A stretch of 64,000 nucleotides of DNA. It comes from Shigella phage ESh29. Below, in pieces: positions 11,008 to 63,680 of this stretch. The stretch is taken from the sequence record ON528739. The stretch is one strand, 5' to 3'. Within the stretch, counting starts at the first letter, position 1. Each line of letters starts with the position of its first letter. The notes under the pieces were generated by a model. That model was not told where the DNA came from, did no database searches, and was given only the letters and a program-made list of their open reading frames with translations. The position numbers and the translations under genes are program-made.

Positions 11008-11011
11008 TAAT

Positions 11012-11040
11012 GGGGACCTTTCGGTCCCCATATTTTTATT
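11012..11040 (+). terminator. Rho-independent terminator after gene 54
   Basis: GGGGACC-TTTC-GGTCCCC hairpin followed by TATTTTTATTT. Confidence 0.7.
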
Positions 11041-11326
11041 TACGGAATGAAATAAAAGCAGCAACTGAAGCAACTAAACTGTCTTCAATATAAACTTCAA
11101 TTTTTACCGGAGCTTCTGACTCAAATTTACCTGTTACTACACCCTGAAAAATACTTTCAGACTGTTCTGGCTTTGAAAAATTTTCAGAAGGAAAAATTCC
11201 GAACTTTTTATCTGTTCCAAAAATTTTAATAAATTCATCGTAAACTGCTTCATTAAAAGCATTATCAGCAGGAATAACGCCTTCAACTACAAGTTCTTGA
11301 CCTAAAAAGCGTAAAGAAGATTTCAT
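11036..11326 (-). CDS. Hypothetical protein, 96 aa (T4 alt.-3 position)
   Basis: ORF with GAGGAA RBS, downstream of an early-promoter cassette. Confidence 0.5.
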   Translation of the reverse strand: MKSSLRFLGQELVVEGVIPADNAFNEAVYDEFIKIFGTDKKFGIFPSENFSKPEQSESIFQGVVTGKFESEAPVKIEVYIEDSLVASVAAFISFRK

Positions 11327-11357
11327 TTTGTGTTCCTCATGTTATGTCAGTAAGACT

Positions 11358-11387
11358 ACTATAACACAACACGAGGGACTTGTAAAC
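11358..11387 (-). promoter_or_regulatory. Early-promoter-like cassette (GTTTAC -35, 18-nt spacer, TATAGT -10), minus strand
   Basis: Minus-strand GTTTAC at 11382-11387 and TATAGT at 11358-11363; about 50 nt near-identical to the cassette at 27131-27184. Confidence 0.55.
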
Positions 11388-13444
11388 TACATTTTGAACT
11401 TTTTAGACATTCCGTTAATGTTAACCAAAGAAGCTAAGATTTGAGAAACTTCGTTTTCCTCTTCTTTTGATTCTTCTACGAGGAATTGATTAAACCCAGC
11501 CATTGGACGAACTTCACCAGTTTCCATCAAATGGTCGCCATCATATACCGATTCTTCTAATTGTTCAGAAGGAGGAACGATTGTGCCTTCAATTAGATAC
11601 TTGTTATAAGCAGTTTCTTTCATCATGTACGTGCTCACTTTATTAATCTTCAGCAAAATTCCACGCGGTAGAATAACTTCAGCTTCTGATGGAAATCCTG
11701 ATAAATGACCTGGAACGATAACTTTGATTCGCTCAGCTCCTTTAATTACCATACCCACGCTAGTTTCAGCATCTTCATTAGCATATGTAGAATGACTACC
11801 CATATGCATTAAATCTTCGGCATCAACAGAACCTTCTCCTTCACCAGAAAATACTGCGCCGGAATCATCTAGAGCCATATAGTTTTTACCATGCTCACCG
11901 AAGATATTTGGTTTAAGCGATGTGGATACGAAGTTCTTGAAATAGAACATTTTATTTTCAATGTTATGACGCAAAGTTTTAAAGGTAACTTCTTGTCCAC
12001 GGTAAAGTGTAGTTCCTGGAGGAAGAACTGAACCTTTAGCGAATGCAGAATCAAGCGTCTCAATATGTTTAATAGCTCGTTCCATATATTCTTCGCGGGT
12101 AGAATCTGGTTTACCCAAAAGGAACGAGTTCATTTCAACATATGAATCTGCACAATAATCTTCAATTACATCAGATTCAGCTTGAGTTAATCCTTTTGGA
12201 GTTACTTCGGTGCTCGCGTATTCATATGCCTGAGCGGCAGATTCATTAATCAATTTATAAATGCCATTCATGACAAATTGAATAATAGCTGTCTTTTCAT
12301 CTGGCGTAGCTTTAGAACCTTTAACTAAATCATTGATAATTTTCTTAATAACATCAAAGCTATTAGAAATATTAATGTCAGCAAGATCGCTTAAAATTTT
12401 ATCAGTTTTATAATCAAAGAATTCTTTATTCTTTAAATATTCTTGAGAACCTTGATATGTTGTATCGCTCTGCAACTTGATAGATGGATCACGTAAACGC
12501 GCATGGGCTAATGCAATATGATTTCGGAAGCTTTCTAGTTCATAATCGTTAGATTTAAAACGAGAAGCACTTCTCATACCACCGATAGCTCCTTTGCCGA
12601 AGTTTGAACCAATCTGAATAACGCCAGAGTTCATTGGTCCTTCTGCTTTATATACCGGAACTTTAGATTCAAGCTCTTGATATTTCTTAGCAGCGAAGCT
12701 ATCACCCTGAAGTGAAGCATCAACAGTAGAATATTGAGCTTGTGCTGCTAATCGACGACTAATTTTAGTTTTCTGAATAACAGCTTGATCCGTGCGCTTA
12801 TCATTTTCCAAAGCAATAGAAGCAGCAACTGCGACAGCTTTAGGAACAGCATTACCTGTTTTAACGTCTACATAAACATCACCAACCTTTGATTCAACTT
12901 TTGTGAATAACTCAGTTGAAATAGGAGGTACACCTGGAATGTCTTCTAAATTGGCATTTTTACGGTAAACCATAATATATGCGTACTTTTTATCATAATC
13001 CCAGATTTCCTTTAAAAGAACATATCGACCTGCTCCTTTAGTACGTACTAAACGGTCAGCAATAACTTGCATTTGACGAGCAGCGCCATTTGTTTTACTT
13101 TTTAGTACGCGGAATAGGCATGCATCAATTTTATACTGTTTCATTGTTTGAAGAGCAGTATCAAAAACCGCATTAATGACACCAATTGGATTTCCACCCA
13201 AGTTTTTAAGCTTGACTAACGATAATTTCTCGTTGACACCTATCATTACGATATGCATCATTTTGTCGCCTGGCTTAACGTTTTTATTTGTATCACCGCC
13301 AGAGGTGTATGTACAAAATCTAAATCCGGGGAGAACGCTTTCTTCACCGGCTTGAATAGCAAAAATTTGAGGTATTTTATGCTTAGGATTTAAGTTAACA
13401 ACCGGCGCCGAAGCGCCGTCAAATAATTCTGTAATAAGTTCCAT
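11387..13444 (-). CDS. Alt-family mono-ADP-ribosyltransferase paralog, 685 aa
   Basis: N-terminal ~230 aa near-identical to the adjacent Alt; R-S-E motifs present (LYRGQ, FVSTSL, EAEVILPRG, YDGDHLMETGEV). Confidence 0.75.
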   Translation of the reverse strand: MELITELFDGASAPVVNLNPKHKIPQIFAIQAGEESVLPGFRFCTYTSGGDTNKNVKPGDKMMHIVMIGVNEKLSLVKLKNLGGNPIGVINAVFDTALQTMKQYKIDACLFRVLKSKTNGAARQMQVIADRLVRTKGAGRYVLLKEIWDYDKKYAYIMVYRKNANLEDIPGVPPISTELFTKVESKVGDVYVDVKTGNAVPKAVAVAASIALENDKRTDQAVIQKTKISRRLAAQAQYSTVDASLQGDSFAAKKYQELESKVPVYKAEGPMNSGVIQIGSNFGKGAIGGMRSASRFKSNDYELESFRNHIALAHARLRDPSIKLQSDTTYQGSQEYLKNKEFFDYKTDKILSDLADINISNSFDVIKKIINDLVKGSKATPDEKTAIIQFVMNGIYKLINESAAQAYEYASTEVTPKGLTQAESDVIEDYCADSYVEMNSFLLGKPDSTREEYMERAIKHIETLDSAFAKGSVLPPGTTLYRGQEVTFKTLRHNIENKMFYFKNFVSTSLKPNIFGEHGKNYMALDDSGAVFSGEGEGSVDAEDLMHMGSHSTYANEDAETSVGMVIKGAERIKVIVPGHLSGFPSEAEVILPRGILLKINKVSTYMMKETAYNKYLIEGTIVPPSEQLEESVYDGDHLMETGEVRPMAGFNQFLVEESKEEENEVSQILASLVNINGMSKKFKM

Positions 13445-13447
13445 GAT

Positions 13448-15544
13448 TTATCCTTGAACGAACTTGTAAGGCATGTTTGTAATATCTATGCAAGACGCAA
13501 TAATTCCAAGAGATGATTCTACTTTCTGTTTAACGTTTGATGAAACAAATGATGCAAAGTCAACTCTGTCTTCTATTTCAATATCACCTGTCATTGCAAC
13601 TACTTCACCGGTTTCCATTAAATGGTCTCCGTCATAGATTATCGATTCGGTGAGCTCTTCCGTGGTCATAACTTCAGCTTGAATGAGTTTTGTATTATTA
13701 GATGTTGTTCCGTCATTATTAGAAGCATCAGTTATTTTATTAATTTTGACCATCAATCCACGCGGTAGAATAACTTCAGCTTCTGTTGCTATTCCGAGAC
13801 TTCCTGGATATACAACATTAACTTTATGAGCTCCATCAATTGCCCATCCTATTTGAACTTTAACGTATTCAGGATTTTCTTTATACGCTCTTATTTCGTT
13901 TGGATTAATAGTTATTCCTTCTTCATTTTTATCAACTGTTAATTCATTGCGAGCTTCTGGTTCTAAAAGACCAATACCAGCATGTGTGATTCCAAAACGT
14001 CCAAAAATGATAGGAGTTAAAGAAGTAGATACAAAATTTCTGAAGTAGAACACTTTATTTTTAACTAACGCTTCATATATAGGAGCAGTCATACTTTGAG
14101 CACGATAAACTGTAATGCCTTCTGGTATACGGTCACCATTTTCAAAAGCTGAATCTAAGTTATTTATAGCAGATTCAATTTCTTTTTCACTCATTACATC
14201 ATATCGTTCTGGATTGTAACGACCTAAAAGAAGATTATTGATGTCAGTATATCCTGAACCGCAATATTCTCTAATGCCACGCTTTTGTGATGGAGTATAT
14301 TTAGAACCATCGCGGGCAATAGTAATATCAATCATTGGACCAGCACCAATTCCAGAAAAACTGTAAATCATTCGTTTGAGGAATTTAGTTTTTGCTGCGT
14401 TCCAGGAATTTTTAGTTATTTCTTCCCAGACTTCATCTGGTTGTCCTTTACGATTTTTATTATGATTAGCAAGCCATTTATCTTTATAATCTTCAAAGAA
14501 TTGATTTACAGCTGCTGCGTATTTCTCTAAACATTTTATTGAAGTAGTTGGTTCATTTTTAATTGCATTAAAAATTACTTCTTTAATTTTTTCTGAAACT
14601 TCACCGACTTGACTCATTGGAAAGAATTTATAATCATAGTGAAGTTCATCTGCCGTTCCTTCAGCAATAATTTTTGCTGCCTTTGTTTTAGAAGCTAATG
14701 AATTAATTCCAAGCTTCATTTCTTCTGCTTCGGGAATTAAAGGTGCAGTAGCTGGTTTATTAAAATTAGCTGCTGTAGATTCATACTTCTGGAATAATTC
14801 ACTTTCAAATCTAGAAGATTCCAATGACTGACTTTGTGCAATTGCTCTGCGAGAAATTTTAACCTTAACGATTACAGCTTGGTCAGAACGTTTATCATTT
14901 TCTTGCGCAATAGATGCAGCAATTGCCTCATTTTTGGTTACTTGAGCTCCAGTATCTTTATTAATATAAACATCACCGACCTTCGATTCAACTTTAGTAA
15001 AGAGTTCAGTGCTAATTTCTGGAACTCCTGGAATGTCTTCTAGTGATACATTTTTACGATGTATAAGAATATATGCATACTTTTTATCATAATCCCAGAG
15101 TTCCTTAAGAAGGACGTATCTGCCACCTGAACGACTGCGGATGAGTCTATCAGCAATAAGTTGAATTTGTCGAGCTTGACCAGCGGTTTTAGACTTAAGA
15201 ATACGAAGCATGCAGGCATCAATTTTATATTGACGCATTGTTTGCATTGCAACAGTAAAAACTGAATTGATATAATTAATCGGGCTTGGACCAAGACCTT
15301 TTAATTTGGCAATTGAACCTTTAGCAGTTAATGTAAAAGGAACGATATGCATCATCTTATCGCCAAGTTTTAGATCTCGGTTTGTATCACCTCCAGATGT
15401 ATAGGTACATAAACGAAAGCCTGGTTGTTCAATTGCATTATCAACATGAACTGAAAAAATTTGTGGTATTTTCTTCTTTGGATTTAAGTTTGTAATCGGA
15501 AGAGTAGTATCTTCGTCAAATAATTCTATAATGAGTTCCATCAT
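13448..15544 (-). CDS. alt: Alt ADP-ribosyltransferase (capsid-packaged), 698 aa
   Basis: N-terminus MMELIIELFDEDTTLPITNL... recognised as T4 Alt; VYRAQ, FVSTSL, EAEVILPRG motifs; late promoter upstream; between 54 and 30. Confidence 0.85.
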   Translation of the reverse strand: MMELIIELFDEDTTLPITNLNPKKKIPQIFSVHVDNAIEQPGFRLCTYTSGGDTNRDLKLGDKMMHIVPFTLTAKGSIAKLKGLGPSPINYINSVFTVAMQTMRQYKIDACMLRILKSKTAGQARQIQLIADRLIRSRSGGRYVLLKELWDYDKKYAYILIHRKNVSLEDIPGVPEISTELFTKVESKVGDVYINKDTGAQVTKNEAIAASIAQENDKRSDQAVIVKVKISRRAIAQSQSLESSRFESELFQKYESTAANFNKPATAPLIPEAEEMKLGINSLASKTKAAKIIAEGTADELHYDYKFFPMSQVGEVSEKIKEVIFNAIKNEPTTSIKCLEKYAAAVNQFFEDYKDKWLANHNKNRKGQPDEVWEEITKNSWNAAKTKFLKRMIYSFSGIGAGPMIDITIARDGSKYTPSQKRGIREYCGSGYTDINNLLLGRYNPERYDVMSEKEIESAINNLDSAFENGDRIPEGITVYRAQSMTAPIYEALVKNKVFYFRNFVSTSLTPIIFGRFGITHAGIGLLEPEARNELTVDKNEEGITINPNEIRAYKENPEYVKVQIGWAIDGAHKVNVVYPGSLGIATEAEVILPRGLMVKINKITDASNNDGTTSNNTKLIQAEVMTTEELTESIIYDGDHLMETGEVVAMTGDIEIEDRVDFASFVSSNVKQKVESSLGIIASCIDITNMPYKFVQG

Positions 15545-15564: not shown

Positions 15565-15572
15565 TATTTATA
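15565..15572 (-). promoter_or_regulatory. Late promoter TATAAATA (minus strand) for alt
   Basis: Plus-strand TATTTATA about 21 nt upstream of the alt ATG. Confidence 0.55.
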
Positions 15573-15578
15573 AAATTA

Positions 15579-15597
15579 AAGGCCCGAAGGCCTTTAA
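15579..15597 (-). terminator. Hairpin / terminator candidate between the 62-aa ORF and alt
   Basis: AAAGGCCTTCGGGCCTTT hairpin followed on the minus strand by AATTTTAT. Confidence 0.5.
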
Positions 15598-15782
15598 TAA
15601 TCTATTGGTAAGAGAGTACGATATATTTCAAACTTTGGACCTTTTTCATAAGCATCAAAAGTTTCTGTGAATTTATTATAAGCATATGCATCTACAAATT
15701 CGAGAATGACTTGTGATACAGAAGTAGAAACATCTCCACCTTCTTTTTGAGCAATGACAATTGTTTCTAAGTAAGCTTTCAT
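15594..15782 (-). CDS. Hypothetical protein, 62 aa
   Basis: ORF coupled (ATGA overlap) to the DNA ligase stop. Confidence 0.5.
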   Translation of the reverse strand: MKAYLETIVIAQKEGGDVSTSVSQVILEFVDAYAYNKFTETFDAYEKGPKFEIYRTLLPIDY

Positions 15783-19520: not shown

Positions 19521-19886
19521 TTAGATATCAAATTCGTTAAGAACTACATCAAAGATTGCTTCAAGATGCTCAGGTTTAGCTCTGTTACTCAGAATATGAC
19601 GAATCCAAGTTTTAACCAAAAGCTTGCGATTATCACCATTCCAGCAAGGATGAGTCCCTAAATCGCGTTGACGAAAATCATCATCCAGAGCGATTTTGAA
19701 GTTGGAACCTTCCATCGTGATTGAAACTGTAATACCGTTTTCAAATCGCATATAAACGTAATTAGGAGTCATATACTGATCGATTTCGCATACTGATCCG
19801 TTTTGATGTTTCCAGAGGCAAATAGTATCAATAGAACCTGCAATACCATTAGAAACATATTTACGTTCAAAGTTGATGTAGTTCAT
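19521..19886 (-). CDS. Hypothetical protein, 121 aa
   Basis: ORF in the 30.x array; promoter-like GTTTAC upstream. Confidence 0.45.
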   Translation of the reverse strand: MNYINFERKYVSNGIAGSIDTICLWKHQNGSVCEIDQYMTPNYVYMRFENGITVSITMEGSNFKIALDDDFRQRDLGTHPCWNGDNRKLLVKTWIRHILSNRAKPEHLEAIFDVVLNEFDI

Positions 19887-19954
19887 TTTTATTCTCCAAG
19901 ATGTTTAATTGCGGTACAGGTATATAATATCATATCCTGTACCAAAGTAAACAA

Positions 19955-20218
19955 TTATTTTACTACTTTCCAATGCTGCATGTCAAGTTTACCAACTTTT
20001 TTCATCTTCTCAATTAAGCGTTCGGCACGTTGGCGAGCTGTAACATAATACCATTCACCCAATTCATTTTGTTCAATTTTTCCAACGATTACTGTATTCA
20101 ATTCATAAATCCAACCAGTAAAGAAATTATGAACTTGAATTGTAAAGGTGAAATCTGTTCCCATACCTTCTGTTGTTTCTACTTCAATAATATCACCTTC
20201 AACTGCCATTAAAACCAC
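19955..20218 (-). CDS. Hypothetical protein, 87 aa
   Basis: ORF in the 30.x array. Confidence 0.45.
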   Translation of the reverse strand: MVLMAVEGDIIEVETTEGMGTDFTFTIQVHNFFTGWIYELNTVIVGKIEQNELGEWYYVTARQRAERLIEKMKKVGKLDMQHWKVVK

Positions 20219-23300: not shown

Positions 23301-23821
23301 GTTGATCCCAGCTCCATACTTTCAACGTTTTTAACTAATTTGACAGAAACTAATTCGGCATCTTGAGTAATCATTACCGGACCTTCTTCATACTCTTCAA
23401 GATATTCTAGAGCTTTCTTTTTAGCTTCTTCCTTCGTATCAGTTTGAGCATAGATATAAAACATACAACCAGTAATACCTACTACTTTCCACTTAATTTC
23501 TTTATCAGTTTTAATTTCAAATTTACTGACAGAATCATCTTTTTGAACTTCTTCGAAAAAAGAATATTCTAACATATAAGCAATTGAAAATAACGGGCTA
23601 ACTTTATAGGATTCGCCCATTACATCAACAGCTTTATACCAACAGTCATCAATTTCGCGTTTAATGCTAATAACATTTTTCGCAGGATCTATTTTTACTT
23701 TAAATGAATTTTCCCCAATAAACTGGGCAATTCGTTTATTAGCCCCGCAAGTTTCATTAAAAATATCTTTATATCCAGCTTTAAAGCGATAAACTTTATC
23801 TTCTTCAAACCATTCGCTCAT
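23294..23821 (-). CDS. Hypothetical protein, 175 aa
   Basis: ORF; early-promoter-like GTTTAC-N18-TATTAT at 23851-23880 upstream. Confidence 0.45.
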   Translation of the reverse strand: MSEWFEEDKVYRFKAGYKDIFNETCGANKRIAQFIGENSFKVKIDPAKNVISIKREIDDCWYKAVDVMGESYKVSPLFSIAYMLEYSFFEEVQKDDSVSKFEIKTDKEIKWKVVGITGCMFYIYAQTDTKEEAKKKALEYLEEYEEGPVMITQDAELVSVKLVKNVESMELGSTC

Positions 23822-23882
23822 TTCAATTTCCTCATTTGTTTGGTAGAGCTATAATATCACAACTCTACCGTAAAGTAAACCA

Positions 23883-26279: not shown

Positions 26280-26629
26280 TTAGAAAGGTCCTGGATGTCT
26301 TCTGCGAACTTGTTGAAGGAGTTGTTGATTTGTTTTTCAACCAATCCTGGCTTACGAGCCACCACATCCGCCTTCTTTGCATCTTTGCGCAGTTTTTCAT
26401 TTTCACGCTCAATAGCAGCAATTGCCTCACGATTTTTAGTATTCATCGCATCAATATAATTATACTGAATTCGCAAATTATTTAATGCTAAAGCGTTTTC
26501 ATTGGCTGTTTTTGTAATTTCAGTAACTGATGTTTCTAATCTTTCTACCTTATTTTTTAAAATAATAGATGTTCCGCCAAATGCTATTACAAGTAATAGC
26601 AATCCAGCTGTAAAATTACTTACATGCAT
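26276..26629 (-). CDS. i-spanin candidate (N-terminal TM helix plus coiled coil), 117 aa
   Basis: Hydrophobic N-terminus (FTAGLLLLVIAFGG) followed by a charged helical region; paired with the downstream lipoprotein. Confidence 0.6.
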   Translation of the reverse strand: MHVSNFTAGLLLLVIAFGGTSIILKNKVERLETSVTEITKTANENALALNNLRIQYNYIDAMNTKNREAIAAIERENEKLRKDAKKADVVARKPGLVEKQINNSFNKFAEDIQDLSK

Positions 26630-27126
26630 AAAGTTTTAATAACCTCTATAATATCGTCTTGAGAAAGACCGTTAATTAAAATATGGTGTTCAGCCGGAGA
26701 TTTAGAAATTTTAAAGCATGCCGCAACATCTTCTGCCATATCCGATGCGCTACGATTTGGATTACTAATTCCAAGACGATGCTTTCCAGTCAAAGGATTA
26801 ACGATGATATAGCATTTGCAGCTATTGATATGAACATTAGGTTGAGTCTGATTAATGAATACTTCACACTCATACTTAGCGAGTTGATTTTCTAAAAAGA
26901 CTTTCATCTCTTCAACCGCATCAGGAAGCATATCACGGGCTTGCTCAAGACGACGATTTCGATATTCTTTAATGGTCGTTTTCCGCTTGACTTGCTTAGC
27001 TAAATCTTTCTTAAGATCAGTGATATATCCAACTCGACGATTTCCTTTGAATACAGAAATCCCATCTGTAGTATCACCGTATGCTTCAACGACCATTTCA
27101 GTAGTAATAAGCTGTAAATCCATCAT
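26620..27126 (-). CDS. alc: Alc, inhibitor of host transcription, 168 aa
   Basis: Size and position between rnlA and the spanin/pseT block; early promoter upstream. Confidence 0.65.
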   Translation of the reverse strand: MMDLQLITTEMVVEAYGDTTDGISVFKGNRRVGYITDLKKDLAKQVKRKTTIKEYRNRRLEQARDMLPDAVEEMKVFLENQLAKYECEVFINQTQPNVHINSCKCYIIVNPLTGKHRLGISNPNRSASDMAEDVAACFKISKSPAEHHILINGLSQDDIIEVIKTLCM

Positions 27127-27154
27127 AAAGTCCTCATGTTATGTCAGTAAGACT

Positions 27155-27184
27155 ACTATAACACAACATGAGGGACTTGTAAAC
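27155..27184 (-). promoter_or_regulatory. Early-promoter-like cassette (GTTTAC, 18-nt spacer, TATAGT), minus strand, upstream of alc
   Basis: About 50 nt near-identical to the cassette at 11337-11387, including the 5' leader and GAGGA RBS. Confidence 0.55.
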
Positions 27185-27187
27185 AGC

Positions 27188-28775
<1,588 letters not shown>

Positions 28776-36826: not shown

Positions 36827-36869
36827 ATTATTTTCCTCTTTAATCATCAGCAGTATTGCCGATAGTTGT

Positions 36870-36899
36870 ATAGTACCACAGTCCTTGTGGTATGTAAAC
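36870..36899 (-). promoter_or_regulatory. Early-promoter cassette with ACCACA...TGTGGT dyad in the spacer, minus strand
   Basis: Minus-strand GTTTAC at 36894-36899, TACTAT at 36870-36875, A/T-rich upstream region; about 50 nt identical to the copy at 56997-57047. Confidence 0.55.
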
Positions 36900-36920
36900 C
36901 GTTTTGTGAAAAAATTTTTG

Positions 36921-36949
36921 AAATAAAAAAGGGGACCTCTAGGGTCCCC
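36921..36949 (-). terminator. Rho-independent terminator after gene 32 (minus strand)
   Basis: GGGGACC...GGTCCCC hairpin followed by TTTTTTATTT on the minus strand. Confidence 0.7.
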
Positions 36950-40245: not shown

Positions 40246-43200
40246 ATGGCCGAGATTAAAAGAAAGTTCAGAGCAGAAGATGGTCTGGACGCAGGTGGCG
40301 ATAAAATAATCAACGTAGCTTTAGCTGATCGTACCGTAGGAACTGACGGTGTTAACGTTGATTACTTAATTCAAGAAAACACAGTTCAACAATATGATCC
40401 AACTCGTGGATATTTAAAAGATTTTGTAATCATTTATAATAATCATTTTTGGGCAGCAACGGATAATATTCCAAAACCTGCTGGAAGTTTTAATAGAATT
40501 CGTTGGAAAGAATTACGTACTGATGCTGTATATACGACCGTATCATCTGGACCATATCAATTAAAATCCGGAGAAGCAATTTCAGTAGATACATCAGTTG
40601 GTAATGACATTGAGTTTACTTTACCACCTTCTCCGCTCGATGGAGAAACAGTAATAATTCAAGATATCGGTGGAAAACCTGGTATAAATCAGGTTAAAAT
40701 AAGTTCTTCAAATCAGAGCATTGTTAATTTTAGAGGTGAACAAGTACGTTCAGTTTTAATGACTCATCCAAAGTCACAGATGATATTCATTTTTAATAAT
40801 CGTTTGTGGCAAATGTATGTTGCTGATTATAGCAGAGAAGCTGCAATTGTTACTCCATCGACTGCATATCAAGCACAATCTAATGATTTTATCGTGCGTA
40901 GATTTACTTCCGCAGCGCCGATTAATATTAAACTTCCGAGATTTGCTAATCATGGCGATATTATTAATTTCGTTGATTTAGATAAATTAAATCCACTTTA
41001 TCATACAATTGTCACGACATATGATGAAACAACTTCAGTACAAGAAGTTGGAACTCATTCCATTGAAGGCCGTACATCGATTGACGGTTTCTTGATGTTT
41101 GATGATAGTGAAAAATTATGGAGATTGTTTGACGGGGATAGTAAAGCACGTTTACGCATTATAACGACTAATTCAAACATTCGTCCAAATGAAGAAGTTA
41201 TGGTATTTGGTGCGAATAACGGAACAGCCCAAACAATTGAGCTTCAGCTTCCAACTGATATTTCTGTTGGTGATACTGTTAAAATTTCCATGAATTACAT
41301 GAGAAAAGGACAAACAGTTAAAATCAAAGCTGCCGGTGAAGATAAAATTGCTTCTTCAGTTCAATTGCTGCAATTCCCAAAACGTTCAGAATATCCGCTT
41401 GAAGCTGAGTGGGTTACAGTTCAAGAATTAGTTTTTAATGGTGAAACTAATTATGTACCAGTTTTGCAACTTGCTTATATAGAAGATTCTGATGGAAAAT
41501 ACTGGGTTGTACAGCAAAACGTTCCAACAGTTGAAAGAGTCGATTCTTTAAATAATTCTACTAGAGCAAGATTAGGCGTAATTGCTTTAGCTACACAAGC
41601 TCAAGCAAATGCTGATTTAGAAAATTCTCCGCAAAAAGAATTGGCAATTACTCCAGAAACGTTAGCTAATCGTACTGCTACTGAAACCCGCAGAGGTATT
41701 GCAAGAATAGCAACTACTGCTCAAGTAAATCAGAACACCACATTCTCTTTTGCAGATGACCTTATCATCACTCCTAAAAAGCTGAATGAAAGAACTGCTA
41801 CAGAAACTCGTAGAGGTGTTGCTGAAATTGCTACGCAGCAGGAAACTAATACAGGTACTGATGATACTACAATCATCACTCCTAAAAAGCTTCAAGCTCG
41901 TCAAGGTTCCGAATCATTATCTGGTATTGTAACTTTTGTATCTACCGCAGGAGCTACTCCAGCTTCTAGTCGTGAATTAAATGGTACGAATGTTTATAAT
42001 AAAAACACTAATAATTTAGTTGTTTCACCTAAAGCTTTGGATCAGTATAAAGCTACTCCAACGCAACAAGGCGCAGTAATTTTAGCAGTTGAAAGTGAAG
42101 TAATTGCTGGACAAAGCCAAGAAGGATGGGCAAATGCGGTTGTAACGCCAGAAACGTTACATAAAAAGACATCAACTGATGCAAGAATTGGTTTAATTGA
42201 AATTGCTACACAAAGTGAAGTTAATACAGGAACTGACTATACTCGTGCAGTCACTCCTAAAACTTTAAATGACCGTAGAGCAACTGAAAGTTTAAGTGGT
42301 ATAGCTGAAATTGCTACGCAAGTTGAATTCGACGCAGGCGTCGACGATACTCGTATCTCTACACCATTAAAAATTAAAACCAGATTTAATAGTACTGATC
42401 GTACTTCTGTTGTTACTCTATCTGGATTAGTTGAATCAGGAACTCTCTGGGACCATTATACCCTTAATATTCTTGAAGCAAATGAGACACAGCGTGGTAC
42501 ACTTCGTGTAGCTACACAAGTTGAAGCTGCTGCAGGAACATTAGATAATGTTTTAATAACTCCTAAAAAGCTTTTAGGTACTAAATCTACCGAATCGCAA
42601 GAAGGTGTTATTAAAGTTGCAACTCAGTCTGAAACTGTGACTGGAACGTCAGCAAATACTGCTGTATCTCCAAAAAATTTAAAATGGATTGTGCAGAGTG
42701 AACCTACTTGGGCAGCAACTACTGCGATAAGGGGCTTTGTTAAAACTTCTTCTGGTTCATTAACGTTTGTTGGTAATGATACGGTAGGTTCAACACAGCC
42801 ATTAGAATCATATGAGAAAAATAGTTATGCAGTATCACCATATGAATTAAATCGCGTATTAGCAAATTATTTGCCATTAAAAGCAAAAGCTGTAGATAGT
42901 AATTTATTAGATGGTCTAGATTCGCTCCAGTTCATTCGTAGGGATATTGCGCAGACGGTTAATGGTTCACTAACCTTAACGCAACAAACGAATCTGAGTG
43001 CCCCTCTTGTATCATCTAGTACTGCTACGTTTGGTGGATCAGTTTCGGCAAATAGTACATTAACTATTTCTAATACTGGAACGGCAACTCGTCTGATTTT
43101 TGAAAAAGGACCTCAAACTGGAACAAACCCGGCTCAAACGATGACTGTCAGAGTGTGGGGAAATCAATTTAGTGGGGAATCAGACACAACACGTTCTACA

Positions 43201-53176: not shown

Positions 53177-53217
53177 TTTCTAATCTCCGTAATTCTGTAT
53201 CAGTAGTTGATAGTTGT

Positions 53218-53247
53218 ATAGTACCACAGTATGCTTTGGTTGTAAAC
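53218..53247 (-). promoter_or_regulatory. Early-promoter-like element (GTTTAC, 18-nt spacer, TACTAT) for motA
   Basis: Minus-strand GTTTAC at 53242-53247 and TACTAT at 53218-53223; shares the TGTGGTACTATACAACTATCAAC block with other copies. Confidence 0.55.
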
Positions 53248-53265
53248 CGGTTTGTGAAAAAATTA

Positions 53266-53294
53266 AAATAAAAAGGGAGAGCCGAGGCTCTCCC
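53266..53294 (-). terminator. Rho-independent terminator (minus strand) after gene 52 and the small ORF
   Basis: GGGAGAGCC...GGCTCTCCC hairpin followed by TTTTTATTTT on the minus strand. Confidence 0.7.
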
Positions 53295-56392: not shown

Positions 56393-56492
56393 AGTAAACG
56401 TTTAATACATCAATCATTAAAACGATTGGGAATATACTCAAAACTGTTAGTATTATAACTACATTCCATATAGCTTTAATAATCTTTTTCAT
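56379..56492 (-). CDS. Small membrane peptide, 37 aa
   Basis: Start at MKKIIKAIW with GGAGGAA RBS; the longer track ORF 56379-56588 would read through a promoter cassette. Confidence 0.35.
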   Translation of the reverse strand: MKKIIKAIWNVVIILTVLSIFPIVLMIDVLNVYFGFM

Positions 56493-56520
56493 TTTCTGTT
56501 CCTCCGTAGTTGATAGTTGT

Positions 56521-56550
56521 ATAGTACCACGGAAGAACAGTCTTGTAAAC
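56521..56550 (-). promoter_or_regulatory. Early-promoter-like element (GTTTAC, 18-nt spacer, TACTAT), minus strand
   Basis: Minus-strand GTTTAC at 56545-56550 and TACTAT at 56521-56526, followed by the conserved ACAACTATCAACTAC leader. Confidence 0.5.
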
Positions 56551-56766
56551 AACTTTTTAAAAATATTCGTAATAAATGTGAATACCAACTACTACCGCTG
56601 AAACCTGTGCAACCCACCACGCACAAGCAATAAGTACAGAATTCAAAATTTTCATAATAACCTCATCACAAAAGTAAATGTTAAACAAATTACTGGAATA
56701 CTAATTAACCAAACAAAACACCACCATAGTGAACTCATAGTTCAATCTCAACGATTTTCATTTTAC

Positions 56767-56973: not shown

Positions 56974-57007
56974 TTTATTCTCCAAATCCGTATCAGTTGA
57001 TAGTTGT

Positions 57008-57037
57008 ATAGTACCACAGTCCTTGTGGTATGTAAAC
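57008..57037 (-). promoter_or_regulatory. Early-promoter cassette with ACCACA...TGTGGT dyad, minus strand
   Basis: About 50 nt identical to the cassette at 36859-36909. Confidence 0.55.
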
Positions 57038-57053
57038 CGTTTTGTGAAAATTT

Positions 57054-57611
57054 TTAAATGGAAAGATACCATCCGTTGTAGTTGCTTTTTCTTACAACCT
57101 TACGAAGGTCTTCTCTATCACCGATGAACTTCGGAGTGTACTGGATGACACCTGGATGAATTTCTTTAGTGTTGAATATAATTATACAGTCAGCGACTTG
57201 ATGATTTAGAATGGGCCCTAGATTTATTCCAGAACCATATGGATACTCTCCGCCGCATCCTGTTGTTACAGAAATCCAACGTGAGTCAGTTTGATGTGTT
57301 TTGACTTCTACTCGAAGCCCGCAATATTTTGGATGTGCTAAAACATCCCATGCATATGTATACGGGTCATTAACATCCTCTTGGCCTTTGTTAACATACC
57401 CGCTTAGCCAATCTGCTACCACATACTCGGCATACACAGCGATACGACATCTTTCGATAACTTCTGCCTTATCCTGATTTGGATTTTGTTTTAAAGAGTA
57501 TCTTGCAGTATCAGCAATTTTGACCTTCATTTCACTGGTCAAATCACTGTTCGATAGGGTAAATGTCGGAATCTGAAATAGTCTCTGTAACCCCGGATTC
57601 GTTTTCTGCAT
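57054..57611 (-). CDS. denB: Endonuclease IV-like protein, 185 aa
   Basis: Size and position between rIIB and ndd match T4 denB; start uncertain because it overlaps the upstream ORF by 68 nt. Confidence 0.55.
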   Translation of the reverse strand: MQKTNPGLQRLFQIPTFTLSNSDLTSEMKVKIADTARYSLKQNPNQDKAEVIERCRIAVYAEYVVADWLSGYVNKGQEDVNDPYTYAWDVLAHPKYCGLRVEVKTHQTDSRWISVTTGCGGEYPYGSGINLGPILNHQVADCIIIFNTKEIHPGVIQYTPKFIGDREDLRKVVRKSNYNGWYLSI

Positions 57612-57873: not shown

Positions 57874-57904
57874 AATTCACCTTAAAACAAAAGGGCCGAA
57901 GCCC

Positions 57905-58099
57905 TTATTTAAATTGTTCAATTCTTTTCTCTAAACAATCTGCATAAGATTTCATTGAGATAAACTGTGAAAGCAGTAATTCTTGCTCAACTGCACTAAC
58001 CGTTAGAAACTTTGCGCTTTCTAAAAATTTACTAAGTGCATTAATTTTGAGCATTAGTTGATCGTATTCTTCTTTTACTCGTGCTTGATAACCTAACAT
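57905..58099 (-). CDS. Hypothetical protein, 64 aa
   Basis: ORF flanked by GGGCCGAAGCCC hairpins. Confidence 0.4.
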   Translation of the reverse strand: MLGYQARVKEEYDQLMLKINALSKFLESAKFLTVSAVEQELLLSQFISMKSYADCLEKRIEQFK

Positions 58100-58127
58100 A
58101 ATTTTCCTTAGTTAAGGGCCGAAGCCC

Positions 58128-59066
58128 TTATTTAAATTGTTCAGTAACGTCTTCAACTACTTCGTATTGGCAGGTACGCATTTTAGCATCGTTGTAATCA
58201 ATCGGAATTGATACTACATCACGTGGATGTACTTTAACTTTTACAACTCGGCTGGTTGAACTACCAAAGTGACGAATATAAGATTTAGAACACACATGCA
58301 GACCACGAGAACAAGTTTGTGTATCATCATCATTTACGCGAGTACGTGGCATTTTAACTACTTTACCCGGACTGTTATCAAAGGTATTTGAGTGACAGTC
58401 AAAGTAGTTGTCACGAACTACTTTCCAAGCATAGAAGTAACCATCTTCTGTAATTTCAATATCATTTGCTACCAAGAAATCAAAGAGTCGAGATACCGCT
58501 TTTTGACTTGGGTTTTCCAACAGATTTTCCAAGAACGGAAAATAAAATTCAAAGTTTTCACCTTTTTCCATCGAGTCAAGAATACGATCAACCAGACCAG
58601 ACCGTAATTCAATATTTTGATAGAACAAGCTTCCACCTTCAATTCGAACATCGCCGGAAATATATTTTTCAACAGCGCGACGAACATTAATTTTTTGTGC
58701 CGCTTCTTCCAACTTATCCGCTACAAGCAGATTAAGAATTTCCTGGAAGTTTGAATGAGTATTAGGAGTTGCGTTATAAGTTACACCATCAACAGTAATC
58801 GAAATGAATTTTTTAGATGCATTCCAAATAATGTCAGATTTAGCAACTGGAGCAATAACTGCATCGCTATTAACTTTAACTGTAATATCACCGCTAATAG
58901 TAACTTTAGAGCGTTTAGCTTCTTCAGCATTTTTCAAAACACGACGGATTGTGTCAACCGATACACCTTGCCAATCAGCCAATTCCTGTTGGGTGTAATT
59001 ACCACTTGAATACAATTTAACAATTTCAGCTTGTTCGTTTTTGGTCAGGCATTTAATATTGTACAT
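58128..59066 (-). CDS. rIIB: rIIB protein, 312 aa
   Basis: Length and position directly downstream of rIIA. Confidence 0.85.
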   Translation of the reverse strand: MYNIKCLTKNEQAEIVKLYSSGNYTQQELADWQGVSVDTIRRVLKNAEEAKRSKVTISGDITVKVNSDAVIAPVAKSDIIWNASKKFISITVDGVTYNATPNTHSNFQEILNLLVADKLEEAAQKINVRRAVEKYISGDVRIEGGSLFYQNIELRSGLVDRILDSMEKGENFEFYFPFLENLLENPSQKAVSRLFDFLVANDIEITEDGYFYAWKVVRDNYFDCHSNTFDNSPGKVVKMPRTRVNDDDTQTCSRGLHVCSKSYIRHFGSSTSRVVKVKVHPRDVVSIPIDYNDAKMRTCQYEVVEDVTEQFK

Positions 59067-63344: not shown

Positions 63345-63410
63345 TTATCCTCGTTTGGTTTCGGGAATATTATACTCCGGTAATCATAAAGCTAAAGGCC
63401 CGAAGGCCTT

Positions 63411-63680
63411 TTATTTAAAACGAATAGTCGAATCCTTGAAGAATAGTCCAGAACATACTGTTCCTTCTACTTTCTGCCCAGTAGGTCCAATAGCACGAAA
63501 TCCAGTACGCTGGAAATCATTTTCAGAGCAACCGAACCAATTATATCCAGTGATTTCAATATTAGTAAAACCACTTGAAGACAAAACTTTGGTTGCATTA
63601 TCAGCATCAGTACATCCTATTAAAGACACTGCTAATACTAATGCTGCGATAGAACGATTAATATATTTCATAATTTTCAC
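63411..63680 (-). CDS. Predicted lipoprotein, 89 aa
   Basis: Signal peptide with lipobox (ALVLAVSLIGC), three further Cys. Confidence 0.5.
   Translation of the reverse strand: MKIMKYINRSIAALVLAVSLIGCTDADNATKVLSSSGFTNIEITGYNWFGCSENDFQRTGFRAIGPTGQKVEGTVCSGLFFKDSTIRFK

What the first reader, a model, noticed from the sequence alone, without database searches (positions are those of the whole stretch)
11337..11387. Near-identical ~50-nt promoter-plus-leader cassette repeated 16 kb apart
The sequences at 11337-11387 and 27131-27184 are almost identical over about 50 nt (plus strand TCATGTTATGTCAGTAAGACTACTATAACACAAC[A/G][C/T]GAGGGACTTGTAAAC). On the minus strand each reads as GTTTAC, an 18-nt spacer, TATAGT, then a leader with a GAGGA RBS. 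One lies upstream of the 96-aa ORF, the other upstream of alc. Identity that includes the 5' UTR is more than promoter consensus and resembles the mobile promoter-early stem-loop cassettes described in T4-type phages. Such repeats can act as recombination substrates at module boundaries.
Basis: partly seen in the sequence, partly recalled or inferred. Interest (0 to 1): 0.5.

Follow-up and report, generated by a model that had tools for sequence, protein, structure and literature searches.

The report
Early promoter inside RBS-hiding hairpin
Two T4-type phage genes (alc and alt.-3) carry the same 54-base cassette, an early promoter built inside a hairpin that hides the ribosome-binding site, so probably only RNA started at that promoter is translated; this is a new variant of a trick already known in T4.

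Summary
The repeat is real. It is 54 nt on the minus strand at 11334-11387 (before alt.-3) and 27131-27184 (before alc). The copies are 53/54 identical, against 47 % mean and 78 % maximum for other early-promoter pairs in the window. The window is a Tequatrovirus, and 499 phage records, T4 included, carry two copies each.

The promoter spacer and -10 pair with the leader and RBS in a 15-bp hairpin (-23 to -28 kcal/mol). Read-through RNA from upstream genes has the RBS fully paired; RNA started at the cassette's own promoter lacks the 5' arm and is open.

At alc the same arrangement recurs in 13 of 17 sampled lineages (11 of 13 genus-level groups) with different arm sequences. Each spacer pairs best with its own leader (0 of 20,000 permutations). 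At alt.-3 only Tequatrovirus has it, and the cassette's 5' end fits the alc flank, so it was probably copied from alc.

Best reading: a promoter-nested translational gate, like T4 e, soc, 49 and I-TevI but with an early promoter. It only loosely fits the PeSL idea. Transcription start sites and translational repression were not tested.

The parts
11334..11387 (-). Cassette copy 1 (upstream of alt.-3), 54 nt: GTTTACAAGTCCCTCGTGTTGTGTTATAGTAGTCTTACTGACATAACATGAGGA
11382..11387 (-). -35 hexamer GTTTAC of copy 1; its G is the last base of the TAG stop of the upstream alt paralogue (alt.-2)
11358..11366 (-). Extended -10 of copy 1 (TGTTATAGT)
   Evidence: TG before second hexamer: yes
11362..11376 (-). 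5' arm of the hairpin, copy 1 (cassette positions 12-26: promoter spacer plus the first two bases of the -10)
11335..11349 (-). 3' arm of the hairpin, copy 1 (cassette positions 39-53: leader plus GAGG of the RBS)
11351..11351 (-). Predicted transcription start of copy 1 (A37, 7 nt after the -10). Inferred, not measured. It lies 3' of the whole 5' arm.
   Evidence: inference from -10 spacing
11036..11326 (-). alt.-3 ORF (96 aa), the gated gene
11010..11031 (.). Bidirectional intrinsic terminator after alt.-3 (ATGGGGACC TTTC GGTCCCCAT)
11387..15544 (-). Upstream late operon: alt (13448-15544) and the full-length alt paralogue alt.-2 (11387-13444). No terminator is called between them and the cassette.
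15565..15572 (-). T4 late promoter TATAAATA just upstream of alt, preceded by the terminator-like hairpin AAAGGCCTTCGGGCCTTT. Source of late read-through RNA into alt.-3.
   Evidence: alt is a late gene in T4
27131..27184 (-). Cassette copy 2 (upstream of alc), 54 nt, with A instead of G at position 16
27159..27178 (-). 5' arm of the extended alc hairpin (cassette positions 7-26, AAGTCC.CTCATGTTGTGTTA)
27128..27146 (-). 3' arm of the extended alc hairpin (positions 39-57). It includes GAGGA and the alc-specific CTT, which pairs with AAG of the cassette.
27148..27148 (-). Predicted transcription start of copy 2 (A37). Inferred.
26620..27126 (-). alc ORF (168 aa from the first ATG; T4 annotates the second ATG)
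27188..28348 (-). rnlA (gene 63) ORF as listed. Its stop lies 3 nt before the -35 of copy 2, with no terminator called between.
56490..56550 (-). Third early promoter with the same architecture but an unrelated stem (CTGTTCTTCCGTGGT / ACTACGGAGGAACAG), upstream of the 37-aa ndd.4

Best explanation
Each cassette is a sigma-70-type T4 early promoter nested inside an RNA hairpin that hides the Shine-Dalgarno sequence of the next gene.

Shown: the promoter spacer and the start of the -10 (5' arm) are complementary to the leader and GAGG (3' arm). No terminator-like site is found between the upstream gene and the cassette.

Inferred: RNA polymerase arriving from upstream (late alt/alt.-2 transcripts; early and middle transcripts through nrd-denA-rnlA) makes RNA containing both arms. 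The RBS is then locked in a helix of -23 to -28 kcal/mol and alc or alt.-3 is not translated from that RNA. RNA polymerase starting at the embedded promoter begins in the loop (about A37). That RNA lacks the 5' arm, the RBS is open, and the gene is translated. The result is that alt.-3 and alc are made only while early promoters fire. This is the T4 e/soc/49/I-TevI logic with an early promoter in place of a late one.

The near-identity of the two copies is best explained by ectopic gene conversion of the alc cassette onto alt.-3 in the Tequatrovirus ancestor, followed by purifying selection.
For: Structure:
- The read-through RNAs fold to -23.3 and -27.7 kcal/mol (z -3.5 and -4.1). RNAs from the predicted +1 are unstructured, at 0 and -0.8 kcal/mol.
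- P(SD unpaired) is 0.00 in read-through RNA and 0.54-0.75 in RNA from the cassette's own promoter.
- All 14 Tequatrovirus haplotypes keep -16.8 to -25.7 kcal/mol and P(GAGG unpaired) <= 0.007.

Conservation by covariation at alc:
- The spacer-RBS hairpin, with the -10 in the loop or 5' arm, recurs in Tequatro-, Dhaka-, Marfa-, Kanagawa-, Gelderland-, Karam-, Moon-, Jiaoda-, Roskilde-, Braga- and Winklervirus with different arm sequences.
- Cis spacer/leader duplexes average -16.9 kcal/mol against -10.5 for permuted pairings (0 of 20,000 permutations). Thirteen of 17 lineages have z <= -4 against shuffled spacers.

Specificity: only 3 of 10 early promoters in the window show spacer-RBS pairing.

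Context:
- No terminator is called between the upstream genes and either cassette.
- A late promoter sits before alt.
- In T4, alt.-3 and alc are early RNA and early protein, alt is late, alt.-1/-2 RNA is middle and RnlA protein is late.
- The precedent is established: hairpins hide the RBS of e, soc, 49 and I-TevI, and the nested promoter frees it (PMC3014915).

Conversion from alc to alt.-3:
- The outgroup alt.-3 promoters are of another type, and the Tequatrovirus alt.-3 region is the outlier among orthologues.
- Cassette positions 7-12 (AAGTCC) pair with GGACTT, whose CTT is alc-specific flank.
Against: - No transcription start site or translation measurement was accessible. The T4 dRNA-seq table is not held.
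- Mosigvirus lacks RBS pairing at alc. PEi26 and 44RR fail the spacer/leader duplex test. Gaprivervirus has an ORF inserted between promoter and alc. The gate is therefore dispensable in some lineages.
- Within Tequatrovirus, 4 of 9 distinct stem substitutions break a pair, so the substitution test is weak (P about 0.02 against a 20 % null; not significant among transitions alone).
- Sense and antisense strands fold about equally well across genera (Wilcoxon p = 0.45), so RNA-level selection is inferred from the position of the RBS, not from strand asymmetry.
- For alc the read-through RNA is itself classed early in T4 (rnlA RNA early), so the benefit of gating there is unclear.
Confidence: 0.6

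Rival explanations
1. It is a PeSL-type mobile promoter-terminator cassette. Its main roles are to attenuate upstream transcription and to provide homology for recombination that shuffles modules; the pairing with the RBS is incidental.
For: PeSLs are defined as early promoter + stem-loop + SD, and in RB49/phi1 the stem-loop can lie between -35 and -10 or overlap the -10. The region does move between loci: Tequatrovirus alt.-3 carries the alc cassette, and VR5 alc carries the alt.-3 leader. The alt side borders a variable region, with a full-length alt.-2 here and truncated alt.-1/-2 in T4.
Against: The hairpin has no U-tract and is not called as a terminator. The T4/PST PeSL stem-loops lie upstream of the promoter. 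In 13 of 17 alc lineages the 3' arm is always the RBS, and the arms covary, which an attenuator or a homology patch would not require. All 499 records keep two copies in the same arrangement.
Confidence: 0.15
2. The hairpin acts on read-through RNA but does not silence it. It might make alc or alt.-3 translation depend on a ribosome terminating at the upstream stop codon (translational coupling). Or it might be a processing site (for example RNase III) that cuts the polycistronic RNA and frees or destroys the RBS.
For: The upstream stop codon lies 0-3 nt before the -35 in nearly all lineages. A terminating ribosome would therefore reach the base of the helix. The extended alc helix has about 20 paired positions.
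Against: The core helix starts 9-11 nt after the stop codon (direct reading). From general knowledge of ribosome footprints, a terminating ribosome would open at most the outer pairs. Close stop-to-promoter spacing is common in this compact genome. No known RNA family matches. Neither idea explains why a promoter is always nested so that its transcripts lack the 5' arm.
Confidence: 0.15
3. There is no function beyond the promoter. The identity is a recent neutral gene-conversion patch, and the inverted repeat is either chance or a DNA-level feature (cruciform) that affects promoter activity.
For: The two loci do exchange sequence. Sense and antisense strands fold about equally well across genera, so a DNA-level structure cannot be excluded on energy alone.
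Against: Chance is excluded: z = -5 to -8 against shuffled spacers, and lineage-specific cis pairing. The pair is present in 499 records across the genus, so it is not recent. In Tequatrovirus the 2-3 G.U pairs make the sense strand 5-6 kcal/mol more stable than the antisense. A cruciform gives no reason for the 3' arm to be the RBS in every lineage.
Confidence: 0.07

Closest known systems
[quoted passage not shown]
   Same: A stable helix pairs the Shine-Dalgarno sequence in transcripts that read in from upstream. A promoter lies within the sequence that encodes the 5' strand, so its own transcripts lack that strand and are translated. No terminator separates the gene from upstream transcription.
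   Different: The nested promoter here is a sigma-70 early promoter (GTTTAC N18 TGn-TATAGT), not a late TATAAATA promoter. Translation would therefore be confined to the early period, not the late one. The 5' arm is the promoter spacer itself. alc, alt.-3 and ndd.4 are not on the review's list. The effect on translation is untested here.
PeSLs, promoter-early stem-loop cassettes of T4-type phages (Arbiol 2010, PMC2839356; Comeau 2014, PMC4122927)
   Same: A strong early promoter, a stem-loop, and an SD with start codon at the 3' end. Repeated within a genome. Evidence of exchange between loci. The third example (ndd.4) lies in the ndd region, where T4/PST PeSLs were described.
   Different: The T4/PST PeSL stem-loops are short, lie just upstream of the promoter, and are read as terminators or attenuators. 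Here the helix spans spacer, -10, +1 and RBS, has no U-tract, is 98 % identical in just two copies 15.8 kb apart, and at alc is conserved by covariation and not as a repeat.
Conserved promoter/leader segments flanking the T-even internal-protein (IP) genes (Repoila et al. 1994, as cited in PMC4122927)
   Same: Short conserved regulatory segments at gene starts that allow exchange of sequence between related phages or loci.
   Different: Known to me only through the citation. Those segments flank swapped genes in one locus. Here the regulatory patch itself was copied between two distant, conserved genes.

Membership tests
T4 promoter-nested RBS-sequestering hairpin (e/soc/49/I-TevI type) | SD and/or AUG sequestered in a stable helix in transcripts initiated upstream | tested here: met
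   MFE -23.3 and -27.7 kcal/mol, z -3.5 and -4.1. P(GAGG unpaired) 0.00 in read-through RNA.
T4 promoter-nested RBS-sequestering hairpin (e/soc/49/I-TevI type) | A promoter lies in the DNA that encodes the 5' strand or loop, so its transcripts lack the 5' strand | tested here: met
   By sequence only. The -35, TGn and -10 are found. The predicted +1 (A37) lies 3' of the whole 5' arm, and that RNA folds at 0 to -0.8 kcal/mol. The start site was not measured.
T4 promoter-nested RBS-sequestering hairpin (e/soc/49/I-TevI type) | The nested promoter is a late promoter (TATAAATA), giving late-only translation | tested here: not met
   There is no TATAAATA in either cassette. The promoter is sigma-70 early type.
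T4 promoter-nested RBS-sequestering hairpin (e/soc/49/I-TevI type) | Upstream transcription reads through into the gene (no terminator in between) | tested here: met
   The terminator scan finds minus-strand sites only at 11031-11010, 20392-20371 and 20434-20418. None lies between alt and alt.-3 or between rnlA and alc. This is a consensus scan only.
T4 promoter-nested RBS-sequestering hairpin (e/soc/49/I-TevI type) | Measured translational repression on the long transcript, relieved on the short one | not testable with these tools
   Needs reporter fusions, toeprinting or ribosome profiling.
PeSL (promoter-early stem-loop) | Strong sigma-70-like early promoter; T4/PST consensus TTTACW N17 TAYWAT | tested here: met
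   TTTACA N17 TATAGT with TGn. There is one departure from TAYWAT, a G at position 5. Some copies have TATAAT.
PeSL (promoter-early stem-loop) | Stem-loop placed as in the T4/PST class, just upstream of the promoter | tested here: not met
   The helix spans cassette positions 12-53, which is inside and downstream of the promoter. It would fit the RB49/phi1 subclass 'overlapping the -10'.
PeSL (promoter-early stem-loop) | The stem-loop acts as a transcription terminator or attenuator | tested here: inconclusive
   There is no U-tract and the terminator scan does not call it. Attenuation without a U-tract cannot be excluded by computation.
PeSL (promoter-early stem-loop) | SD and start codon of the downstream gene at the 3' end | tested here: met
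   GAGGA lies 7 nt before the ATG in both copies.
PeSL (promoter-early stem-loop) | Lies in hyperplastic regions next to ORFans and at indel or replacement boundaries | tested here: inconclusive
   The alt.-3 copy borders the variable alt.-1/alt.-2 region. The alc copy sits between conserved rnlA and alc in all genera sampled. No rearrangement ends at the cassette in the genomes examined.

The most novel reading that the evidence does not exclude
alc may carry an ancient gate, present across most Tevenvirinae genera and in Bragavirus, that restricts its translation to the early period. In this gate the promoter spacer, which RNA polymerase does not read base by base, has been used as the anti-Shine-Dalgarno strand and co-evolves with the RBS. 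The whole promoter-plus-gate module can be moved to other genes by short-patch ectopic gene conversion: alc to alt.-3 in Tequatrovirus, and leader exchange in the other direction in Dhakavirus VR5. An independently built example sits at ndd.4. That would make temporal translational control a portable property of T4-type early promoters, and it would give a functional reason for some of the stem-loops in PeSLs.
Probability: 0.45. Interest if true: 0.6.

Novelty: new variant of a known kind. Interest (0 to 1): 0.5.

Why it matters
T4 is the model for timed phage gene expression. The known hairpin gates (e, soc, 49, I-TevI) all delay translation until late. An early promoter nested in an RBS-hiding hairpin would do the opposite: it would keep a gene strictly early even when it sits at the 3' end of a late or long operon. 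alt.-3 is in exactly that position, behind the late alt genes.

This would explain three things. First, why the identity of the two cassettes runs from the -35 to the RBS. Second, what at least some PeSL stem-loops are for. Third, that promoter spacers can carry a second, RNA-level code. It also documents a 54-nt regulatory module copied between two conserved genes 16 kb apart.

The idea can be tested directly with existing T4 dRNA-seq data and simple reporter fusions.

Tried and rejected
- MAFFT alignment of 16 alc upstream regions followed by RNAalifold gave no structure, because the 3' arms are out of register. I replaced it with an alignment-free cis-versus-trans duplex test. I did not build a covariance model, because an alignment fitted to the structure would bias the pair counts.
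- The strand-asymmetry test (sense versus antisense MFE) was inconclusive across genera (p = 0.45).
- After the first 17 natural copies I thought every stem substitution preserved pairing. Fetching the most divergent copies showed four that break a pair, so I withdrew that claim. One search contained an off-by-one extraction of the T4 alt.-3 copy, and its substitution table should be ignored.
- Concerted evolution within Tequatrovirus: in the 8 genomes where both copies were seen, no derived allele is shared by the two copies of one genome. G16A, C15T and G32A occur at both loci, but in different genomes. There is therefore no evidence of ongoing homogenisation. The T27C variant was seen only in alc copies.
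- Rfam found no family at either site.
- IMG/VR yielded only 7 matches. Of the 48 metagenome stretches, only 10 held real cassettes.
- Literature I could not reach: Miller et al. 2003 and the T4 TSS table of the NAD-cap preprint. The GenBank T4 records annotate no promoters here. An older description of these two hairpins therefore cannot be excluded.
- RegB cleavage was considered and set aside. The T4 RBS here is GAGG(A), not GGAG. This rests on my own knowledge of RegB specificity.

Full report
OBSERVATION

On the minus strand, the sequences at 11334-11387 and 27131-27184 are 54 nt long and 53/54 identical. The single difference is at cassette position 16: G before alt.-3 and A before alc. 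No such match is expected by chance. Identity begins at the G of GTTTAC and ends at the A of GAGGA, and both flanks are unrelated. In copy 1 that first G is also the last base of the TAG stop of the upstream ORF. The promoter scan finds TTTACA, a 17-nt spacer and TATAGT with a TG extension at both sites.

Ten T4-type early promoters with an adjacent ORF in the window give 45 pairs. This pair is 98 % identical over the 54 nt. The other 44 pairs average 47 % with a maximum of 78 %.

WHERE IT IS

The window is a Tequatrovirus, 97-99 % identical to RB3, RB32 and T4 relatives.

- Copy 1 lies between a full-length alt paralogue (alt.-2, 11387-13444) and alt.-3 (96 aa, 11036-11326). alt.-3 is followed by a bidirectional terminator at 11010-11031.
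- Copy 2 lies between rnlA (gene 63) and alc.

A search with the bare 54-mer finds 499 phage records and 997 places. That is two copies per genome throughout the genus, T4 included. In T4 the alc copy equals the consensus and the alt.-3 copy has G40A.

Cassette positions 12-26 (the promoter spacer and the first two bases of the -10) are complementary to positions 39-53 (the leader and GAGG of the RBS).

- RNA that reads in from upstream folds to -23.3 kcal/mol (alt.-3, z = -3.5) and -27.7 kcal/mol (alc, z = -4.1).
- RNA starting at the predicted +1 (A37, 7 nt after the -10) is unstructured, at 0 and -0.8 kcal/mol.
- The probability that the RBS is unpaired is 0.00 in read-through RNA and 0.54-0.75 in RNA from the cassette's own promoter.

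This explains why the identity runs from the -35 to the RBS and no further: that span is the promoter plus the two arms.

COMPARATIVE EVIDENCE AT alc

I fetched the rnlA-alc junction from 16 further lineages. In nearly all of them a GTTTAC promoter starts 0-3 nt after the rnlA stop codon. In Tequatro-, Dhaka-, Marfa-, Kanagawa- (IME523), Gelderland-, Karam-, Moon-, Jiaoda-, Roskilde-, Braga- and Winklervirus, the spacer again pairs with the RBS, with the -10 in the loop or the 5' arm. The arm sequences differ. Examples are CCTCATG/CATGAGG, CCTCGTTTGTT/AACAAACGAGG, CCCATTTTGTT/AACAAAATGGG, CTCCGTTT/AAACGGAG and CCTCTCATTTTT/GAAAATGAGAGG.

An alignment-free test confirms lineage-specific complementarity. 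Each spacer's duplex with its own leader averages -16.9 kcal/mol, against -10.5 for permuted spacer-leader pairings (0 of 20,000 permutations reach it). Thirteen of 17 lineages have z <= -4 against shuffled spacers.

Exceptions:
- Mosigvirus has a spacer-only hairpin.
- In PEi26 the helix ends 4 nt before the RBS.
- In 44RR the 5' arm overlaps the -10 and +1.
- Gaprivervirus VR25 has an extra ORF, with a GGGG...CCCC hairpin over its promoter, inserted before alc.
- Acinetobacter Ac42 has a different gene order.

SPECIFICITY WITHIN THE WINDOW

Only three of the ten early promoters show spacer-RBS pairing with z <= -5. They are alc, alt.-3 and a third, at 56550-56490(-), whose stem is unrelated (CTGTTCTTCCGTGGT/ACTACGGAGGAACAG). 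The third one drives the 37-aa ndd.4. The other promoters carry hairpins confined to the spacer or spanning the -10 and +1. These resemble published PeSL subclasses.

TRANSCRIPTIONAL CONTEXT

The scan finds no terminator-like site between alt and alt.-3 or between rnlA and alc. Directly upstream of alt there is a terminator-like hairpin followed by the late promoter TATAAATA. Late alt-alt.-2 transcripts should therefore run into alt.-3.

In published T4 time-course data, alt is late, alt.-1/alt.-2 RNA is middle and RnlA protein is late. alt.-3 and alc are both early RNA and early protein (PMC9697503). This fits an active early promoter in each cassette. For alt.-3 it also fits the absence of late translation, although that paper does not test the point directly.

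ORIGIN OF THE IDENTITY

In the outgroups the alt.-3 promoter is of a different type. Dhaka-, Mosig-, Marfa- and Gelderlandvirus have a small hairpin inside the spacer (CCACA..GGA..TGTGG and similar) with the RBS free. IME523 (Kanagawavirus) instead pairs its spacer with the start-codon region.

Identity between the alc and alt.-3 upstream regions within one genome is as follows:
- Marfa-, Kanagawa- and Gelderlandvirus: 0.56-0.65.
- IME08: 0.73.
- JK45: 0.77.
- VR5: 0.87.
- Tequatrovirus: 0.86, which is 98 % over the cassette.

The Dhaka-, Mosig- and Marfavirus alt.-3 regions are 0.78-0.80 alike (the two Dhakaviruses 0.98). The Tequatrovirus alt.-3 region is only 0.66-0.72 identical to any of the six outgroup regions.

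In the alc copy, cassette positions 7-12 (AAGTCC) pair with GGACTT, whose CTT lies outside the shared 54 nt and is specific to alc. The cassette therefore fits the alc flank. One metagenomic alt.-3 copy has C11T, which extends the helix into the alt.-3 flank (GUUCC/GGAAC).

The simplest history is that the gate is ancestral at alc and was copied onto alt.-3 by ectopic gene conversion in the Tequatrovirus ancestor.

Exchange also goes the other way. In Dhakavirus VR5 the last 33 nt before and including the alc ATG are identical to the alt.-3 leader. In the related IME08 the alc leader is different, while the promoter halves of the two alc regions differ at only one position.

VARIATION WITHIN TEQUATROVIRUS

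I collected 26 cassette copies: window, T4, 17 from IMG/VR and metagenomes, and 5 divergent phages. They give 14 haplotypes. Nine distinct substitutions fall in the stem. Five keep pairing (C15T, G16A, G40A, C42T, A46G) and four break one pair (G16T, G18A, T19A, G40T). That beats the 20 % expected for random substitutions (P about 0.02), but it is not significant among transitions alone. Every haplotype still folds at -16.8 to -25.7 kcal/mol with the RBS paired.

No derived allele is shared by the two copies of one genome, so there is no sign of ongoing homogenisation.

COMPARISON WITH WHAT IS KNOWN

The closest mechanism is the set of T4 hairpins that hide the RBS of e, soc, 49 and I-TevI on long transcripts. 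There a late promoter within the 5' strand gives translatable short transcripts (PMC3014915). alc, alt.-3 and ndd.4 are not listed in that review, and the nested promoter here is early, so the temporal logic is reversed.

PeSLs share the parts list: early promoter, stem-loop, SD. The T4/PST type, however, has a short stem-loop upstream of the promoter that is read as a terminator. This helix has no U-tract and always ends on the RBS.

No Rfam family matches.

LIMITS

- Transcription start sites and translation were not measured.
- The strand-asymmetry test was inconclusive.
- The benefit of gating alc is unclear, because the read-through RNA there is also early.

VERDICT

- Best explanation: an early promoter nested in an RBS-sequestering hairpin. 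I put the structure at about 0.9 and the gating function at about 0.6.
- The two copies are alike because the alc module was copied onto alt.-3.
- This is a new variant of a known T4 mechanism, of moderate interest.

Noticed in passing
window 56490-56550 (-): The early promoter of ndd.4 (37-aa membrane protein) has the same promoter-in-hairpin architecture, with an unrelated 15-bp stem that pairs GGAGGAA (-22.7 kcal/mol; P(SD unpaired) 0.00 in read-through RNA versus 0.79 in its own transcript).
   Followed up: partly
window 36857-36927, 53205-53275, 56508-56578, 56995-57065: A four-copy family of early promoters shares GTGGTACTATACAACTATCAACT (-10 plus initial transcribed region) at 69-80 % identity. 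Two of the copies lie in the ndd-denB hyperplastic region, where T4/PST PeSLs were published.
   Followed up: partly
window 57037, 36899, 61524 (-); L010, L011, L012, L014 alt.-3 promoters: A small hairpin, CCACA-(A/T)GGA(C)-TGTGG, recurs inside the -35/-10 spacer of several early promoters. The same motif sits at the alt.-3 promoter of Dhaka-, Mosig- and Marfavirus. Its function is unknown.
   Followed up: no
window 19884-19952 (-) and 23819-23880 (-): Two early promoters have 12-16-bp hairpins that span spacer, -10 and +1 (-19.4 and -16.3 kcal/mol) but stop short of the RBS.
   Followed up: no
window 11387-15544 (-): Two full-length tandem alt paralogues, 685 and 698 aa (repeat families D2, D3, D6 and D20, spaced 2094-2097 nt). 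T4 has only the truncated alt.-1/alt.-2 remnants. The number of alt copies also varies among Dhaka-, Gapriver- and Mosigvirus.
   Followed up: partly
window 57891-57920 and 58114-58143: A perfect 30-nt direct repeat 223 nt apart, containing a terminator-like hairpin (AAGGGCCGAAGCCCTT ATTTAAATTGTTCA).
   Followed up: no
window 15565-15598 and 63381-63414: A terminator hairpin (GGCCTTCGGGCC) fused to a late promoter TATAAATA is repeated at 85 % identity. On the minus strand the first copy sits directly upstream of alt. The second copy was not checked for a late promoter.
   Followed up: partly
L013 4792-5107 (Gaprivervirus VR25): A 77-aa ORF with its own promoter, overlapped by a GGGG...CCCC hairpin, is inserted between rnlA and alc. 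It displaces the alc gate. This looks like a classical PeSL-type insertion.
   Followed up: no
L015 about 19940-20011 (Kanagawavirus IME523, alt.-3): Here the promoter spacer pairs with the start-codon region (AATGAACG / CGTTCATT, -26.2 kcal/mol) and not with the RBS. This may be an independent way of gating alt.-3.
   Followed up: no
L044, L079, L080, L081 (T6): alc copies: A locus-specific variant, T27C, changes the -10 from TATAGT to TACAGT. It was seen only in alc copies, never in alt.-3 copies. Some alt.-3 copies instead have G29A, giving a consensus TATAAT.
   Followed up: partly
window 41650-42572 (+): Several 30-35-nt direct repeats at multiples of about 108-120 nt (families D4 and D8). 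They look like a repeated protein domain in a coding region.
   Followed up: no
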